IMG/VR virus record: IMGVR_UViG_3300020718_000024
Span: 1 to 39,117 of that record
Length of the DNA stretch: 39,117 bases
Reading direction: 5' to 3' (one strand)
From: a virus
Taxonomy: Duplodnaviria > Caudoviricetes
How positions within the stretch are numbered: the stretch's first letter is position 1; each line of letters begins with the position of its first letter. The translations under genes were made by a program, and so were the position numbers. Of this stretch, positions 402 to 39,117 are shown piece by piece. The notes under the pieces were generated by a model that was not told where the DNA came from, did not search any database, and saw nothing but the letters and a program-made list of their open reading frames with translations.

Positions 402-3400
402 TTATACCTTACCTTTTGCAATTCTTAAAGCATGGACAATTGCATCATCATGCATATGAAGCATGGATTTCGTGTGACCATCCAATTCCCGTTTAGCGGC
501 TTTAAAAACCTTATCAACCTCAGGAATACGACCACCCGTTGCGCGGGTTACGCGACCGCCCTTATTTTGGAAGGTGCGGCCAGCCGTAGGCGCACTAGGA
601 GCCGTAGGGGCCTTAGCCATTACGCTTTGCGTATGATTAAGGAAATCGTTAACCGACATTCCTTGCAACTTATTTCCGGTAATTGCTTTTGGATTGATAC
701 CAGTGTCTTGAAGGCTAGAACCACCGTTTGACCGCAACACCTTCATCGCGTCATTCACACCCAACATATGGGCGGCATAAACATTTTGAGGCGATGTATC
801 AAATCCATTCGCCGCCAATGTTGCCATATTTTGCTGCGTAAGGTTTGTGACCAAATCCCTTTGCAAATTACGGTCAAGGACAATGTTCCTAAGTAATGTG
901 GAGTTAGAAACGCCCGAAGGATCTTGACTGGTATCCAAACCACCCGTGCTTACGTCGCCGGGATTAACTTGGCCCGTTGCCTGATTAAGCATTTCAGGAT
1001 GCGTCTGCGTTAGTTGGCTCAAAGCGGTCGCGGGGGTTAGTCCCCACGGTCCAAATGCACCGGAACTCATATTGTACGTATTTTGTCCGTACGAACTTTC
1101 CGGTCCCTGAATCTTATCAACTAAACTATTGACGTAATCCAAATGCGGCGTAGCGATTGATGAAGGGTCGCCTTGAGAAGGGGCGGCTCCAACGTTTCCG
1201 GAAACGTTTACATCCTTGCCAAAAGCAAATGGACTTACGTCTTGGCGGTTTGCCTTGTCATTTGCCGCCGCTTGTGAGTCACTGGATGCTTGTTGTGATT
1301 GCGAAACAGTATCGGCGCGAACGTTTTCGTTCCCACCCGAATCTCCACTGGAACCGCCTGTATCACCTTTATACCCACCAACGCTATCCCCAGCACGGAC
1401 ATCGCCGCCCTCGTCATAGCCCACGCGGCCACCCTCTTTGCGGCCCATAGCTGTAGCACCCGCTACCGTTGCGCGTTGACGTATAGCTTTGCCAAGATTG
1501 TCGTTAACAAACATTTTCGCTTTGTTGGACATATTCTGGTTTTGATATAAATCGCGATACGCCGCCTGAAGATCATCAATATTATTGGACTTCATTTGCT
1601 TCAATATGCGGCTAGCATATCTTCTTTGTGCGCTATCGGCGGAGAATTGAGCAATTTTGTTTAAAGCTTCCGCCCACAAACTGTGCGTCCCAATAAGAAG
1701 ATCCAACGGGGAAAATGTGAAGGCGGAAGGGGTGCGGCCCGTCATGCCATTAACAATCTTATTGGTATCATTTTGCAATGATTCCATTCGCGCAAAAGTT
1801 TCCATATGCTTAACTTCTTGCGGCCCAAAGATATTTGTTAATGCTTTACGGGCTTGAGCATTGTCAAAATACTTATTCACAATGGCCGAATTAAACCGAT
1901 CACCAATTTTTGCTTTGTTTAATAGGTTAAGCATAAACGCTTTTTGCATGAAGTTTTTTTCTTCAGCGCCAAGAATTTTTGAAACATTAACCAATTCGTG
2001 GACTTTTTTCGTGTCCCCAATGCTATTAATCAATCGGGTGGCCAATTTAGCAGCGTTCTCTTGATCGCGTTTGAAAACATATCCATTGTGTGCATTTGTA
2101 AATGCTTGGTTAAATACAGAACTTTTTGGGTTTTTAAGATCATTGACGATCTTTTCGCCCATAGCTTTTACGCCTTTTCCGGAGCCAAATTGGGTACCGC
2201 CAGATTGGGTAATTTTATTTTCACCAAGGATATTAAGTTCCCGTTGAAGTTGATCCAATACGCGAACATTGACTTTATTGGGGTCCACCGCAAATTTGAA
2301 TGGAACTTTATTCATTGCATTTTGAACAGAAGTAACACGTTTATCGGCAACATTTTTGGCGGCTAAATAATCGGCCCCCTCAACATCTTCACCCTGCGGA
2401 TGTTCGTAAAACATATTAAAAAGGTCTTTTTCTGATTTTCCCTCAAGGTCAGAAACATTGAATATTTTGTTTTGATATAAGGCTTCTTTATTGGCGTCAG
2501 ACAAACGCAAAGATCCAATTGGAAGATCAGGCAATAAGTTGCCGGTACCCGGCTCACGAATGACGCGGGAAAATGGTGAATTATAACCAGAAACAGTTTG
2601 GCCTAATTCCGTATCTGTATTCCGAATGGCTTGTTGAAAATCTGGGTTTTGCAAAAACCCGTTCCATTCTTTACTCCACTTGCCCAAACCATTGTTAGGG
2701 GCGTCGGAGATTTTATAATTGTCGTTATTAATCTCATTGCGGCGTCTTGTAGCGTCAGCCTCAAGATCCGCCAAATTCATGTGTTCATTGACGCCATACA
2801 TTCTGTCCAAAAAGTCGGAAAACCTATTCCCGGACGAACCAGCGCGGCTTTGATACATTTTCTGAATGGCATCAATCTGATCTTGGCTGCCATTTGAAAT
2901 AATATCATTAATATGATTTTGCCAAACATCACCGCCAATGTCTCCCCATTGCGGCATTTGGGTTGCTGCGGGGTCTTGCAAATTAGCGGTTCTTTGAGCT
3001 TGGAATTGGTCAAGATCCAATCCCTTCATTTCCTGAGGCGTTCCAGCATTCCGGGTATGGCCGTTTTGACGATCCTGCTCCCATACGTCCGCAAGACTTT
3101 TTGCAAACTGAGGATCTTTTTGGAAGAAGCTAGTCATCCATTCCGGCGCATGTTCAAGCGCAAGGTTTCCCGCTGCACCTGCCGCCCGTGCTCCGACGCC
3201 TAAACCAGCACCAAGTGCGCCACCAAGCACCGCACCCTGAGTGATACTTGTGTCGGCAGCATTTGGCTCCGTTCCAAAATACTTTTCACCCGCCGCAGAA
3301 GCTGCTCCATAACCAGCACCTTCCAATCCAAGGCCAGCTATGTCTGTTGCTGCGCGACCTAAGGTGGTCGTGGGGGCGATAACCGTTTCCAAACCCTTTG

Positions 3401-14122: not shown

Positions 14123-14353
14123 TTAAGATTCCCGGATGATCGCGGTAGAAGTATCCCTGTCAATGGATAGTACACCATAACAGACAATATTCCAATCCAT
14201 ACCATCCCGTTCATCCTTTACGGGAACATTAATATCCAAGTGCTTGAACAGGTATTCTTTGCCGCCATTTTCAAACACCCGCCAGACATGATCTTCCGTC
14301 CCGCGTCCCGGCTGGCCCCGTGTTTTATTAAAGCGGATGCCATACTTGTTCAT
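14123..14353 (-). CDS. Hypothetical protein
   Basis: 76 aa, ATGA overlap with the oxygenase gene, GGAGG SD. Confidence 0.7.
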   Translation of the reverse strand: MNKYGIRFNKTRGQPGRGTEDHVWRVFENGGKEYLFKHLDINVPVKDERDGMDWNIVCYGVLSIDRDTSTAIIRES

Positions 14354-14994
14354 ATAACCTCCGCCGCGGGCATAGGTGGATTAGCCACTGCCGTCAGGTT
14401 AAAGTGTATGAAAGTCATTGGATCGTTGGAGGCATTACGGGTGAAGCTGTGTGCCAACCAAGCATTGGTAAAGATTAACGTGCCATCTTCTGGGGCAACA
14501 TTAATAGCATTGCTTGCATGGGTAATGTTGGCGGGATCAAATTCTGGCAGTCCTATCTGAACCTTACCAGCACGGGGATCATGGAATGTAGCTACAGAAC
14601 CGTTTTGCGGCGTCCTAAGGAAGTAAAACCCGACAATCTGTGCCCCATGTGCATGAACATGCTGATCCATGCCGCTGTATTTATAATGCTGTTGCGCCCA
14701 CATTTCGGTAAATGACGTGCTGAAATTACGCACATCGTACCCCTGTTCACCCAAAATGTTCCAAGACGTTGACCCAATATACGCACAAAGGTCTTCCAAA
14801 CGCGGATCGTCGTATAGGTTATCCGTCATATAAACAGGGTACACCTCATGGGTGCCGCCCTGTTCTTTTTTACGTTTTTCAATATATTCATCAACAACCT
14901 TGCGGGTGTTGTCCAAAAATTCGGGCTTTTTAATTACGTAAATGGTCGTTGGAAAGCAGTGAATAGGGTTTAGTTCATCTTTTGCGTCTGCCAT
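14350..14994 (-). CDS. Putative 2OG-Fe(II) oxygenase (TIGR02466-like)
   Basis: CFPTTIY start, EMWAQ, H-x-H (QHVH), GFYFL, FHDPR, LIFTNAWLAH and FIHFN motif series. Confidence 0.8.
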   Translation of the reverse strand: MADAKDELNPIHCFPTTIYVIKKPEFLDNTRKVVDEYIEKRKKEQGGTHEVYPVYMTDNLYDDPRLEDLCAYIGSTSWNILGEQGYDVRNFSTSFTEMWAQQHYKYSGMDQHVHAHGAQIVGFYFLRTPQNGSVATFHDPRAGKVQIGLPEFDPANITHASNAINVAPEDGTLIFTNAWLAHSFTRNASNDPMTFIHFNLTAVANPPMPAAEVI

Positions 14995-22094: not shown

Positions 22095-22823
22095 TTACGC
22101 ACCTGTCTGAACGATTTGCGTATACTGCGGAGGTATACCAACGGATGCCGTTACTATACGGGTATTTGGCCCTAAAAGTCCACCGGAAGGTATAGCAGAA
22201 TTAGCTTGATATGTAAAAACTGTAGCTGACAGAACAGTGATGCTATACATCCCCATAGCATTATTATTCGTCGTCCCCGTAACTGATATCTGGCTATTGG
22301 TTACAAGGCTGCTTGCGGATGAAAGTGTTACGGTAATATTAGTTGTGCCATCGGCGGTGATGGACATAACGGGCAACAAAATATCGTATTGCGTTTGGTT
22401 GATCAGCGGCATCAATGCATTTGGATCAAGGTCCGCTGGCTTACCAATAGGTTGAGCGGTAAGGTTTTGCCCATCTTCCGTAATCAAATCCACATTGTTA
22501 GGCACCGGAATGCCCGTTTGCGTATTAATGGTAAATCCGGGTTCCGCCAAATTGCTGGTATTGTATATGTCATACGAATCAGGGCGGGCGTTCAACACAG
22601 GAACTGGGTCTTGTGTAGTCAAAATAGGTTTCAACTGAGCCTGTGGCTTGTCATAGCATTTTTCGCAAACCAAGAATCGCAGGTTCTGCAACTGCGGGCC
22701 ACGGAAATCAAATTGCCATTTCAATGTTTTGTGTAAAAAAATGAACGAACACCTGTCGCATCTTCCCCATGCGGACGGAGCATTTGGATTTACATACGCA
22801 TGTCCATGAGGCCTATACGCCAT
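22095..22823 (-). CDS. Virion protein with N-terminal CxxC...CxxC zinc-binding motif and C-terminal beta domain
   Basis: Likely start MAYRPH at 22823 (GAGG SD). CDRC and CEKC motifs, then DPVPVLNARPD. Confidence 0.65.
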   Translation of the reverse strand: MAYRPHGHAYVNPNAPSAWGRCDRCSFIFLHKTLKWQFDFRGPQLQNLRFLVCEKCYDKPQAQLKPILTTQDPVPVLNARPDSYDIYNTSNLAEPGFTINTQTGIPVPNNVDLITEDGQNLTAQPIGKPADLDPNALMPLINQTQYDILLPVMSITADGTTNITVTLSSASSLVTNSQISVTGTTNNNAMGMYSITVLSATVFTYQANSAIPSGGLLGPNTRIVTASVGIPPQYTQIVQTGA

Positions 22824-23442
22824 AATTAACCTCATAACAAAAACGTTTTCCGCCTACAGTTTTCCTATGTCTTTTTCCCAAACACAATTCAATTAAAGCA
22901 CTTTTTGCTACATTATAAAATTTTGCCGCTTCACTAGCAGATGCATAAATTTTTTCATCGTCCAAACAAATGACTTTTTTTGCTGAAGCTGCCGGACCTT
23001 TAATTGCATGTTCTTTCCATTTATGAAAATTTTTATATGCAGCTTCTTTCAATTTTTGACGGGTTTCTTGAGTATGCGATTTGCCCAACCTGTAGGTGTT
23101 TCCTGCATGTGTTTCTCTAATTTTTTGTTTAGCTTCCTCAGACATAATTCCACCAAGACGACCGCCCCCGCCGCAAGTTGAATTATATTCTGGCCGCAAC
23201 TCAGAAATAACTTTTATTTCTAATTTTTTAGCGTCTTCCAAAGAATCCGCAAAATCCGCCTCATAAACATCAAACCCGTCAGGACCATATTTGCGAATTG
23301 CTTTGTAAAAAACACCCTCATTATGCCCCAATTTTGCATGAGACATATGTTCTGTCCAACGACGCAAAATTGAACGGCCCGTTATACCCACATAACGTTT
23401 ACCATTTAATTTATTTTCAGCGACGTATAGGGTGTAAACCAT
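22813..23442 (-). mobile_element. Free-standing GIY-YIG homing endonuclease with NUMOD3- and NUMOD1-like DNA-binding modules
   Basis: TLY-x10-YVG, conserved R, E and YN; SEEAKQKIR/HTQETRQKLK repeats; KKVICLD...YASASEAA...C. AT-rich and wedged between two structural genes. Confidence 0.88.
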
Positions 23443-30563: not shown

Positions 30564-30962
30564 TCAGAACGCCATATCTGGCTCAGGAATGACCATTTTA
30601 ATTTGAACATCTTGAATAACGTGGCAAAGAACACCGTTAATGTTCAACTTCCAACCGTCTGAGGACCGAAGGACAATCCAGTCACCTTCGTTCACGTCCT
30701 GACCAGCAAAAGCGGTTTTGTCGTCATCAATAAACGCAATCGGACCTTTTTTCAGCACAAGAACTACCTTGCCCTGATATTCGTCTTCTTTGCGGATGCC
30801 ATCTGAGAGGTAAAGGCCGGAGGCCGTACGTTCTGGCCGTTTATATACGGCGCAGAGAATGTTGTTATGCATTACCTTAATTTTGGAAATGTCACCAATT
30901 GCAGTTTTTAACTCCGCTGCGGGGTCAGCCGCATGGAGCATCTTCATAGTCGCAGTCTTCAT
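30564..30962 (-). CDS. groES: GroES-like co-chaperonin
   Basis: RTASGLYLSD mobile loop, GKVVLVLKKGP, VNEGDWIV. Confidence 0.8.
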   Translation of the reverse strand: MKTATMKMLHAADPAAELKTAIGDISKIKVMHNNILCAVYKRPERTASGLYLSDGIRKEDEYQGKVVLVLKKGPIAFIDDDKTAFAGQDVNEGDWIVLRSSDGWKLNINGVLCHVIQDVQIKMVIPEPDMAF

Positions 30963-37639: not shown

Positions 37640-38578
37640 TCAAAATACATGGTCGCCCCTAAACACGGGGCGGCCATTAATCATTTCGCACAGTTCCGGC
37701 GGGAACATTGTCCCGTCCTCATCAAAAGAAATTACCGCAAACCCTTGCTGCGACCGCGAGGGAGTCCCTTCCGCATACTGAAATTGCGGGCCAGTAGGGT
37801 CCGCCATCATCCCAGTCTCCACACCCCACCGTGATCCGCGCCTATCCCGCATAGCAGTTACCTGTAACTGGTGGGTATGTCCGGTGATAATATTTATCCC
37901 ACTATGTAGGGCATTGTTCCACCCCGCATGTATCCCCGCCCTGAACCTGTGGCGGATTTCAGTTCCGTTAATATCAAACGCAAAAGAAAAATCCCAATCT
38001 GTAAAATGCTCATGCAGGGATAAGATGTATCCATCCAGTTCCGACGCATTTGCCGCGATGTAGTTATCAATACGGATATCGTGGTTGCCTAGCGTCCATA
38101 ATTTGTATTTAGCGTTGGGGAGGAAACGGAGCCATTTCTTGGCGGTGTCAATTTCTTTTTCAATCTTGGGAGCTTTGGAATTCCGGATGGATGGGTGGCG
38201 GCTAATTCGTGCCCCGTCAATAATATCCCCGTTAAGGATAATCCCATCAACTTTAAGGGATTTAGCTAATTTAACGAATGCTTTGTAAATGAGGGTTGGA
38301 TCACCGTCCCAGACGTGGAGGTCAGATCCTATAATCCATTTTGTATCGGGGGCATCAATTATTTTAAGTCTGGGGTAAGTCCAAGAGGATGTTGGGTATT
38401 CTAATTTTACGTCATCCAACCCATTAGGGAATCGTTCAAACGCCATTTTCATTCTGTGGTTAAATGTGTTTGGCGATATGTTTCCCGCCTTAGCGGCTAT
38501 GGTTGGTCGGCGGCTATGCGCTTCCAAAAGTTTAAGGGTTTCAATTAAAACTTCCACAGATAGTTTAGGTGTCGGCAT
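37640..38578 (-). CDS. Calcineurin-like metallophosphoesterase with N-terminal HTH-like segment
   Basis: SDLH, NGDIID, GNHD, H and GHTH motifs; likely start MPTPKL at 38578. Confidence 0.85.
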   Translation of the reverse strand: MPTPKLSVEVLIETLKLLEAHSRRPTIAAKAGNISPNTFNHRMKMAFERFPNGLDDVKLEYPTSSWTYPRLKIIDAPDTKWIIGSDLHVWDGDPTLIYKAFVKLAKSLKVDGIILNGDIIDGARISRHPSIRNSKAPKIEKEIDTAKKWLRFLPNAKYKLWTLGNHDIRIDNYIAANASELDGYILSLHEHFTDWDFSFAFDINGTEIRHRFRAGIHAGWNNALHSGINIITGHTHQLQVTAMRDRRGSRWGVETGMMADPTGPQFQYAEGTPSRSQQGFAVISFDEDGTMFPPELCEMINGRPVFRGDHVF

Positions 38579-38711
38579 TTGATTTTCCCCGTTGTTTAAA
38601 GTATAATGCCTTGAAACTATGTAACTTTTATTACCCCTAATTTGGGGGAATGACAATGTCTAATGCTCCGCACTACATCACGGAACTAGAGGCCGCATGG
38701 TCTGCGGTTAG

Positions 38712-38742
38712 TTGACAATTTTTTATTGCCGCCATATATAGT
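38712..38742 (+). promoter_or_regulatory. Strong sigma70-type promoter
   Basis: TTGACA (38712-38717), 17 nt, TATATA (or TATAGT at 19 nt). Confidence 0.65.
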
Positions 38743-38746
38743 ACTC

Positions 38747-38979
38747 AAGCTTAATTAACAAACTGCATCTGGATGTAAGGTCAGGGGTTAATTACCTAGG
38801 AAATAGTTTACGGGGCCGCATGTTTCTGCTGCTTCCATGTATCAGGTAATACGAAGCAGAGCAGCGTCAGTATTACCACCCGTAAAGCATAGCCGCTAAT
38901 GGAGAACAATGGATTGCGGTCGCGTCGCGGTCGGCGGATCTCAAAGAAAGCCGTCAGGGGAAACTCTGGCGGTTTTTTT
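38747..38979 (+). ncRNA. Candidate structured non-coding RNA (~230 nt) with H-type pseudoknot
   Basis: Bounded by a promoter and an intrinsic terminator, with no convincing ORF. Three helices of 7-8 perfect pairs form a stem-enclosed pseudoknot. Confidence 0.55.
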
Positions 38980-38984
38980 GTTTT
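38949..38984 (+). terminator. Intrinsic terminator
   Basis: AGCCGTCAGGG-GAAA-CTCTGGCGGTT then TTTTTGTTTT. G-U pairs and the GNRA loop favour the + strand RNA. Confidence 0.8.
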
Positions 38985-39117
38985 AAGGGCCGCAAACATT
39001 GCCCAACAAAAAATAATTCCGTAGGGCAATAGATTATACCAAAAGGGCGGTTTGGTACAATAACCGCCAGTAGGATTGTACTTTGATATACGGGGGGTCC
39101 CAAAAAGGGGGTGGGGT

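What the first reader, a model, noticed from the sequence alone, without database searches (positions are those of the whole stretch)
38712..38984. Stand-alone ~230-nt RNA with a stem-enclosed H-type pseudoknot
Seen: a TTGACA-17-TATATA promoter and a GAAA-loop terminator bracket a region with no convincing ORF. P1 TTTACGGG (38807-38814)/CCCGTAAA (38879-38886) encloses S1 CTGCTTC (38829-38835)/GAAGCAG (38853-38859) and S2 GGTAATAC (38845-38852)/GTATTACC (38870-38877). Loops of 9, 0 and 10 nt give canonical coaxial pseudoknot geometry. Flanking hairpins carry GGA in or near loops (CTGGA, TAGGA, ATGGA twice). I do not recognise it as tRNA, tmRNA or a hammerhead. Inference: an undescribed phage ncRNA. 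Options include a CsrA/RsmA sponge, an antitoxin-like decoy (type III antitoxins are pseudoknots), a ribozyme, or a packaging-related RNA given its closeness to terS.
Basis: partly seen in the sequence, partly recalled or inferred. Interest (0 to 1): 0.75.

Follow-up and report, generated by a model that had tools for sequence, protein, structure and literature searches.

The report
Phage CyVA-1 RNA with kissing loops
This lake phage carries a roughly 240-base non-coding gene whose folded core matches the catalogued but unexplained CyVA-1 RNA; across many relatives two hairpin loops of the family keep matching each other, and the relatives' layouts suggest that the RNA likely sticks to copies of itself and is likely a bacterial stress RNA that the phage has borrowed.

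Summary
Real RNA gene, but not undescribed. The core (38808-38885) matches Rfam CyVA-1 (44 bits, cut-off 41.4). The conserved pairing is another register: a 7-bp kiss, 38828-34 with 38859-65, 99% paired, with a likely pyrimidine triple strand. Family-level results not found in my literature searches: (1) the two loop hairpins occur in both orders; (2) cyanobacterial CyVA-1 is a doubled 184-277-nt RNA whose loops pair between modules (B1:A2 perfect in 15 of 19, A1:B1 in 0 of 19), so Rfam holds only half; (3) phage B-A forms add a palindromic loop (20 of 41 against about 5 shuffled); (4) bacterial copies start right behind EcfG-type (8 of 8) or sigma54-type promoters. Best reading: a stress-induced, self-assembling RNA module taken up by phages. 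Pairing between molecules is inferred, not shown, and expression here is untested. CsrA sponge, type III antitoxin and packaging RNA are not supported. This scan has found phage CyVA-1 copies, a rearranged form and the loop pairing before on other DNA.

The parts
38712..38740 (+). sigma70-type promoter, TTGACA-17-TATATA; lacks the last T of the -10 box; predicted start near 38747
   Evidence: Sequence. The -35 box and spacing are kept in all 7 rows of alignment A3, the window included. Lack of -7T is common in Alphaproteobacteria (PMC7703639, start of abstract in search listing). Start site inferred.
38752..38794 (+). 5' hairpin; inner stem 38763-70 with 38778-84, loop GGAUGUA (38771-77); a separate module that also occurs without the CyVA-1 core
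   Evidence: Fold (z only -1.07). The stem changes while the loop is kept in L165 and L016; the same loop sits before the same terminator in L168, L182, L183 and L225, which lack the core.
38807..38886 (+). CyVA-1 core: three-way junction closed by P1 (38807-14 with 38879-86)
   Evidence: Rfam RF02965, 44.0 bits against gathering 41.4, E 8.8e-9, model positions 1-77; own model R1 75 bits; covariation.
38818..38840 (+). Hairpin A: stem 38818-22 with 38836-40; loop 38823-35 = pyrimidine tract 38823-27 (likely third strand) plus kissing strand 38828-34
   Evidence: Stem 82.6% paired, 6 of 6 counted pairs with two-sided changes. C at 38826 occurs only with G at 38861 in 26 of 26 cases.
38845..38877 (+).
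   Evidence: Stem 91.8% paired; kiss 99.0% paired with two-sided changes at all 3 variable pairs. Loop positions 3-4 (AG) kept in 86 of 86 B-A hits when not fixed by the pattern.
38902..38942 (+). 3' hairpin (inner stem 38912-19 with 38925-32); not part of CyVA-1, weak on its own
   Evidence: Fold z +0.42; stem kept with changes in close relatives; a counterpart exists in L168, which lacks the core.
38950..38984 (+). Intrinsic terminator: stem 38950-59 with 38964-73, GAAA loop, U tract
   Evidence: Fold z -5.43. The same hairpin occurs in relatives without the core (L168, L182, L183); the U tract is shortened in L160, L161, L164 and L165.
37640..38578 (-). Divergent neighbour, metallophosphoesterase gene (context only; likely start 38578)
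   Evidence: PHROG 221, E 3e-26. R1 finds the RNA beside only 12 of 80 relatives of this gene, all in the 91%-or-closer clade.

Best explanation
The stretch is the gene for a predicted 240-base stand-alone RNA whose 80-base core is a CyVA-1 three-way junction, and that core likely works by docking loop A of one molecule onto loop B of another to build a protein-free dimer or ring, likely a bacterial general-stress RNA that the phage has taken up and would make in bulk from its own promoter. Shown by sequence comparison: family membership; the three stems; the 7-bp A-B kiss; portability of the two hairpins (orders A-B and B-A); cross-module kissing in the doubled cyanobacterial RNA; palindromic loops in phage B-A forms; fixed-distance alternative-sigma promoter motifs in bacteria. 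Inferred: (a) a major-groove triple helix in which the U/C tract 38823-27 lies on the purine strand 38858-61 (about 0.8); (b) pairing between molecules rather than within one (about 0.5); (c) stress induction in hosts (about 0.65); (d) the assembled particle displays the invariant loop-B face to bind and hold a conserved host factor during stress or dormancy, and the phage uses it to steer the host's stress state (about 0.35; no partner identified).
For: Rfam hit over cut-off. Of 135 loop-A/loop-B co-occurrences with a good stem B, 125 pair at all 3 kiss positions left free by my pattern, against 1 of 32 without a stem. Kiss 99% paired in 60 A-B sequences and 100% in 31 B-A sequences, with two-sided changes at all variable pairs. 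Cyanobacterial Rfam hits (19 of 20 parsed): six Watson-Crick pairs for A2:B1 in 15, A1:B2 in 10, A1:B1 in 0, A2:B2 in 0. Their first module keeps the A-to-B spacing of single-module copies (18-20 nt in 8 of 9, against 17-23 nt), so the same junction serves cross-pairing. Hairpin-C loops hold a palindrome of 6 nt or more in 20 of 41 distinct loops against a shuffled mean of 5.1, maximum 13; the GGCC/GAUC/AGCU switch is the signature reported for intermolecular bridges of OLE and GOLLD (bioRxiv 2024.12.08.627333, passages). Short phage-borne motifs can self-assemble by kissing loops (manA; bioRxiv 2026.07.01.735769, parts 1-2 of 5). GGAAC-N15-18-NNTT lies 50-52 nt before loop A in 8 of 8 alphaproteobacterial copies (strict form 6 of 8; background 0.02-0.03); the EcfG consensus GGAAC-N16-CGTT is from PMC3892343 (passages). 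A sigma54-type motif (recalled consensus) lies upstream in 28 of 43 Acidobacteriota-and-other copies and 4 of 6 Rokubacteria/Methylomirabilota copies, background 0.03-0.04. Neighbours are heterogeneous and in mixed orientation. The family was detected as RNA in halite cyanobacteria (bioRxiv 761684, one passage).
Against: Covariation cannot tell pairing within a molecule from pairing between molecules. By my rough geometric reasoning an in-molecule kiss is feasible for the A-B form, and the cyanobacterial cross-pairing could have arisen by a swap after duplication. With G-U pairs allowed, A1:B1 still pairs fully in 7 of 19. The palindromic loop and the doubled module belong to relatives; the window's RNA has neither. 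Counts are of sequences, not independent events: 5 of the 8 alphaproteobacterial copies are Alsobacter, and many acidobacterial ones are Bryobacteraceae. No stress-type promoter was seen for cyanobacterial (0 of 11) or phage copies. The RNA is patchy (pattern in 1 of 401 genomes of Alsobacter's order; Rfam in 16 of 151 cyanobacterial genomes), and close relative L160 keeps P1 but has changed both loops, so it is dispensable. No partner protein was found.
Confidence: 0.5

Rival explanations
1. Monomeric aptamer: the kiss and triple helix fold within one molecule into a compact pocket that binds a small molecule, ion or protein, so the RNA works as a free-standing sponge or sensor.
For: In cyanobacteria the second kiss (A1:B2) holds without the invariant flanking bases, while B1:A2 keeps them, so those bases may do more than glue. 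The motif meets the multi-phylum, junction/pseudoknot and invariant-base criteria for 'sophisticated' RNAs (PMC5737381 section 17). Triple-helical pseudoknots form ligand pockets in SAM-II and preQ1-II riboswitches (recalled).
Against: No gene association points to a ligand. The invariant bases can all be read as triple-helix and minor-groove contacts (inference). A monomer does not explain the palindromic loops or the cross-module pairing.
Confidence: 0.3
2. A new self-cleaving or otherwise catalytic RNA in which hairpin B docks on hairpin A, as the substrate loop does in the VS ribozyme (recalled).
For: About 80 nt, invariant unpaired bases, several rearranged forms; among small RNAs, natural permutations are mainly known from hammerhead and twister ribozymes (PMC10085705 section 3).
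Against: No ribozyme family matches at E up to 10. Predicted starts lie right at P1 in bacteria, which leaves little to cut off. The 3' half of loop B varies in cyanobacteria.
Confidence: 0.08
3. Cis-acting leader element that controls a downstream gene, left without its gene in this phage.
For: In L016 an 84-aa ORF lies between the core and the terminator. 49 of 66 B-A loci have an ORF of 45 aa or more starting within 200 nt downstream, some within about 10 nt of the closing helix (no background control).
Against: In the window and the six close relatives of alignment A3 the terminator hairpin follows with no conserved ORF. Many bacterial copies face a convergent gene and have their own promoter motif at P1. 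No alternative pairing with a ribosome-binding site was found conserved.
Confidence: 0.07
4. One reading: CsrA/RsmA sponge, type III antitoxin decoy, or packaging RNA.
For: Two ANGGA sites at 38899 and 38909 and a conserved GGA-loop hairpin; the pseudoknot and the complementary loops on a three-way junction recall ToxI and phi29 pRNA (recalled).
Against: CsrA found in 0 of 4 host genomes with the core; the conserved loop is U/C-GGA, not ANGGA (consensus from PMC4005645, passages); no repeats; no defence-family neighbour among 6 proteins; present in bacterial chromosomes, with terS adjacent once among 45 phage neighbours scanned.
Confidence: 0.05

Closest known systems
CyVA-1 RNA motif (Rfam RF02965; Weinberg et al. 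2017, PMC5737381)
   Same: Full-length model match over the gathering score; three-way junction with the U-rich loop A and the 17-nt loop B; about 78 nt; intergenic; no gene association.
   Different: The Rfam hits I fetched from cyanobacteria are the 5' half of a doubled 184-277-nt RNA whose loops pair across modules. In the window the two loops match each other (single-module form), and the core sits in a longer phage transcript with an extra GGAUGUA hairpin and a terminator. The model's printed structure line shows no loop-loop helix; I could not read the paper's supplement or the Rfam seed annotation.
Self-assembling orphan RNAs: OLE, ROOL, GOLLD (bioRxiv 2024.12.08.627333) and manA, EGFOA (bioRxiv 2026.07.01.735769)
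   Same: Covarying kissing loops that turned out to be intermolecular; palindrome switching GGCC/GAUC/AGCU; found in phages and bacteria; function open.
   Different: No sequence or Rfam match; the core is far shorter (80 nt); assembly is solved for those RNAs and only inferred here.
phi29 prohead RNA (pRNA; properties recalled)
   Same: Three-way junction with two mutually complementary loops that could link molecules hand in hand.
   Different: Not tied to packaging genes; chromosomal in several bacterial phyla; no Rfam match.
Telomerase RNA pseudoknot and SAM-II/preQ1-II riboswitch folds (recalled)
   Same: A pyrimidine tract predicted to cross the major groove of the pseudoknot helix, with U-A-U and C-G-C interchange.
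   Different: Analogy of architecture only; no template, no expression platform, no sequence match.

Membership tests
CyVA-1 (RF02965) | Covariance-model score at or above gathering (41.4 bits) over the full model | tested here: met
   44.0 bits, positions 1-77. The whole-window scan with fast filters missed it.
CyVA-1 (RF02965) | Three-stem junction with conserved loops A and B | tested here: met
CyVA-1 (RF02965) | Intergenic, no fixed neighbouring gene | tested here: met
CyVA-1, cyanobacterial doubled form | Second module downstream with cross-pairing loops | tested here: not met
   One match only in the window; its own loops pair 7 of 7 (sequence).
Type III antitoxin (ToxI/CptI/TenpI) | Tandem pseudoknot repeats | tested here: not met
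   Only short two-copy chance-level repeats. Family features recalled.
Type III antitoxin (ToxI/CptI/TenpI) | Toxin gene behind the terminator | tested here: inconclusive
   The contig ends 133 nt after the terminator; close relatives show no conserved ORF there; 0 of 6 neighbours hit PADLOC.
CsrB/RsmZ-type sponge | Many conserved A(N)GGA loops | tested here: not met
   Two ANGGA sites, one lost in L152 and L157; the conserved loop lacks the A.
CsrB/RsmZ-type sponge | Host encodes CsrA | tested here: inconclusive
   Host unknown; PF02599 found in 0 of 4 bacterial genomes that carry the core.
Known self-cleaving ribozymes | Match to a catalytic core model | tested here: not met
   No such Rfam family at E up to 10.
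Known self-cleaving ribozymes | Site-specific cleavage | not testable with these tools
   Needs a bench assay.
phi29 pRNA | Fixed link to the packaging motor, phage-only | tested here: not met
   Chromosomal copies in Acidobacteriota, Cyanobacteria, Alphaproteobacteria, Rokubacteria/Methylomirabilota and one Gemmataceae MAG.
Self-assembling RNAs (OLE/ROOL/GOLLD/manA kind) | Covarying kissing loops or palindromic loops | tested here: met
   the palindromic loop is in relatives only.
Self-assembling RNAs (OLE/ROOL/GOLLD/manA kind) | Defined protein-free oligomer | not testable with these tools
   Needs mass photometry or cryo-EM.

The most novel reading that the evidence does not exclude
CyVA-1 is a portable 80-nt RNA assembly unit: a triple-helix-locked kissing joint that links molecules into defined dimers, rings or cages. 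Bacteria of several phyla make it under general-stress sigma factors; cyanobacteria have fused two units into a covalent pseudo-dimer; cyanophage-like forms add a palindromic third arm; and phages such as this one carry it to take over the host's stress particle.
Probability: 0.35. Interest if true: 0.85.

Novelty: new variant of a known kind. Interest (0 to 1): 0.58.

Why it matters
CyVA-1 has been an orphan since 2017; full-text searches found it named in only two works. The comparison corrects the family's structure (Rfam appears to hold half of the cyanobacterial RNA, which would hide the kiss) and gives two direct handles on function: a bench test of self-assembly on an 80-base RNA, and a named regulator (EcfG) in culturable Alsobacter. 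If it assembles, it would be among the smallest natural self-assembling RNAs reported, and a case linking such a particle to the general stress response and to phage take-over.

Tried and rejected
Whole-window Rfam scan at gathering: 0 hits, a filter miss. blastn of the region against INPHARED phages: none; of a B-A form: one weak partial hit. Sequencing runs: no RNA holder listed; the one RNA-labelled run is probably DNA and touched only the terminator region; neither says anything on expression. The loose loop-B pattern over 301 cyanobacterial genomes was mostly chance matches and was not used. Short-ORF reading rejected. Resemblance of loop B to the 16S decoding site (recalled) dropped, because the second loop position varies (78 of 86 A). 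A hammerhead-like reading of the minus strand dropped: no Rfam match, and G-U wobbles and promoters favour the plus strand. tRNA adjacency is weak: 4 of 60 loci scanned held tRNAs, two of them in the equivalent slot of core-less relatives. A partner gene was sought among 109 of 144 neighbouring ORFs (Pfam) and 11 further proteins (NCBIfam): none recurrent beyond local synteny. The structured RNA in L168/L225 matched no Rfam family. Supplements: PMC5737381 unreadable and may already draw part of this structure; PMC10085705 and PMC12510878 searched for CyVA, 0 hits, one file unsearchable; bioRxiv supplements not seen. A paper search for permuted kissing-loop phage ribozymes gave 0. Scripts 101 and 102 stopped on degenerate rows; counts use the 19 rows printed.

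Full report
Setting. The window is a 39,117-base linear virus record, 67% complete, with terminase, portal, capsid and DNA-ejection genes on the minus strand. Its TerL is closest to Roseobacter phages CRP-901 and CRP-902 (44-46%), and near-identical DNA occurs in freshwater and lake metagenomes. An alphaproteobacterial host is likely but not shown. The finding lies on the plus strand, divergent from a metallophosphoesterase gene and 1.9 kb from terS.

Check of the observation. The region folds better than all 200 shuffles. No ORF in it is conserved. The consensus scanner did not list the promoter or the terminator. The terminator hairpin nevertheless has z -5.43, and a -10 box without its last T is usual in Alphaproteobacteria (PMC7703639, start of abstract only).

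Identity. The whole-window Rfam scan found nothing, but the narrower scan gave CyVA-1 (RF02965) at 38808-38885: 44.0 bits against a cut-off of 41.4, full model. A full-text search for CyVA-1 found two works; a looser search listed 30 of 353 papers, all unrelated. Weinberg 2017 (passages and section 17 read, supplement unreadable) says in its main text only that the RNAs average 78 nt. A halite metatranscriptome paper (one passage) reports low-level expression in cyanobacteria.

The true loop pairing. Of 135 cases with at least 4 of 5 stem-B pairs, 125 pair at all three; of 32 with at most 2 of 5, one does; 30 cases with 3 of 5 were left out. Alignment A1 has 60 rows: 63 non-redundant hits, less four I judged chance matches and one with a long insertion, plus two added. 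There the helix 38828-34 with 38859-65 is 99.0% paired with two-sided changes at all three variable pairs. The fold is thus a three-way junction with kissing loops. The third base of the pyrimidine tract is C in 26 cases, always with G at the matching purine; it is U in 27 cases with G and 81 with A (Fisher p 3e-13, not corrected for kinship; seen in three groups). That fits U-A-U and C-G-C major-groove triples; the triple helix is inferred.

Rearranged forms. The same two hairpins occur in the order B-A: 44 of the 135 cases above (two of them cyanobacterial), and 86 of 94 distinct hits of a dedicated scan passed the stem and kiss filter. In 31 aligned B-A sequences (37 less six of other layout) the kiss is 100% paired and all five helices covary. 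Most carry a third hairpin. Its loop could be cut out in 60 of 86 rows (41 distinct); 20 hold a palindrome of 6 nt or more against a mean of 5.1 and a maximum of 13 in 2,000 shuffles, with GGCC, TGATCA, TAGCTA and others interchanged. The same switch marks intermolecular bridges in OLE and GOLLD. Many of these loci precede proteins that look like CP12 or DUF4278 (labels recalled), which suggests cyanophages.

Cyanobacterial form. Rfam found CyVA-1 in 16 of 151 sampled cyanobacterial genomes. The 20 first-module hits continue into a second module: A1-B1, a linker, then A2 and a reduced B2. In the 19 rows parsed, six Watson-Crick pairs form for A2:B1 in 15, A1:B2 in 10, A1:B1 in none and A2:B2 in none; with G-U allowed, A1:B1 pairs fully in 7. 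The unit is 184-277 nt long, so the Rfam model covers its first half, and the model's two consensus loops do not match each other. Two of 12 cyanobacterial pattern hits showed no A2 by the script: L338 has none in the stretch shown, L365 has a variant. The first module keeps the spacing of single-module copies, so the simplest reading is that the junction points A and B at another module and that single-module RNAs such as the window's pair with a second molecule. A swap after duplication of an in-molecule kiss remains possible.

Regulation in hosts. All 8 alphaproteobacterial copies (five Alsobacter, three other MAGs) have GGAAC followed by a -10-like motif 50-52 nt before loop A, which places the predicted start at P1 (strict form 6 of 8, background 0.02-0.03). 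This is the EcfG general-stress consensus (PMC3892343, passages). A sigma54-type motif (consensus recalled) precedes 28 of 43 Acidobacteriota-and-other copies and 4 of 6 Rokubacteria/Methylomirabilota copies, but none of 31 phage copies. Bacterial neighbours include OsmC, glucose-6-phosphate dehydrogenase, KaiC-like and release-factor-like genes among many unrelated ones; that these often belong to stress regulons is recalled. The RNA is patchy: 1 of 401 genomes in Alsobacter's order.

The phage locus. Model R1 finds the core beside 12 of 80 relatives of the phosphoesterase gene, all at 91% identity or more; many other loci are cut short. In more distant relatives the same slot, in three cases ending in the same terminator, holds tRNAs and another structured RNA (L168, L225) or only the GGAUGUA hairpin (L182, L183); L016 has an 84-aa gene between core and terminator; L160 keeps P1 but has changed both loops. 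The slot behaves as an exchangeable RNA cassette, and the core is optional cargo, unrelated to packaging.

Mechanism and rivals. I commit, at about even odds, to a self-assembling stress RNA taken up by the phage. Membership, stems, kiss, rearrangements and promoter motifs are shown by comparison. The triple helix, pairing between molecules, stress induction and a bound host factor are inferred.

Earlier notes of this scan, read after my reading had formed, already report phage CyVA-1 copies, a rearranged relative and the loop pairing on other DNA; a search for notes on dimers or stress promoters returned none. Verdict: a real RNA gene, a single-module phage variant of a known orphan family, whose value lies in the corrected family structure and the testable assembly and stress hypotheses. 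Interest 0.58.

Noticed in passing
L168:2090-2300 and L225:2930-3160 (minus strand, approximate): A shared, roughly 140-nt structured-looking non-coding stretch behind tRNA-Pro (and tRNA-Tyr in L168), in the slot where the window has CyVA-1; no Rfam match at E 0.05.
   Followed up: partly
window 38763-38784; L165, L016, L168, L182, L183, L225: Hairpin with loop GGAUGUA and a changing stem, kept independently of CyVA-1; in L182 and L183 it is all that lies before the terminator, so it may be a minimal small RNA of its own.
   Followed up: partly
window 38656-38715 (+): Remnant of a 78-aa cysteine-rich gene that is intact in L157, L160, L161, L164, L165 and L016; about 170 nt are missing in the window and in L152. 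No NCBIfam or PADLOC hit.
   Followed up: partly
L160, core region (about 470-550, minus strand): Close relative that keeps P1 and the flanks but has rewritten both loops; decay or a replaced module.
   Followed up: no
L521-L543, second module: A small hairpin with a loop of the type CUAAA/CGAAA precedes B2 in the cyanobacterial doubled RNA; possibly a further tertiary contact.
   Followed up: no
L397, L402, L414, L423, L447, L457, L459, L468: A third layout: one outer helix enclosing B then A, ending just before a start codon.
   Followed up: no
L403, L418, L420, L421, L426-L429, L441, L442, L445, L455, L469, L471, L473: Small proteins ending in a CP12-like cysteine motif (label recalled), some with an extra N-terminal CxDGFC motif, directly behind the B-A RNA.
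   Followed up: no
window 39033-39061 and 39092-39117: An 11-nt inverted repeat and a G/C-run block conserved behind the terminator in many relatives, often near contig ends; possibly a packaging or replication site.
   Followed up: no
window 22813-23442, 30564-30962, 14350-14994 (-): Homing endonuclease, GroES-like co-chaperonin and 2OG-Fe(II) oxygenase genes within the structural module.
   Followed up: no
L055:4382-4619 and L107:4421-4775: Group I introns about 2 kb from B-A type RNAs.
   Followed up: no
L303, L327, L334: A pterin-4a-carbinolamine dehydratase gene faces the RNA convergently in two cyanobacterial and one acidobacterial locus; may be chance.
   Followed up: no
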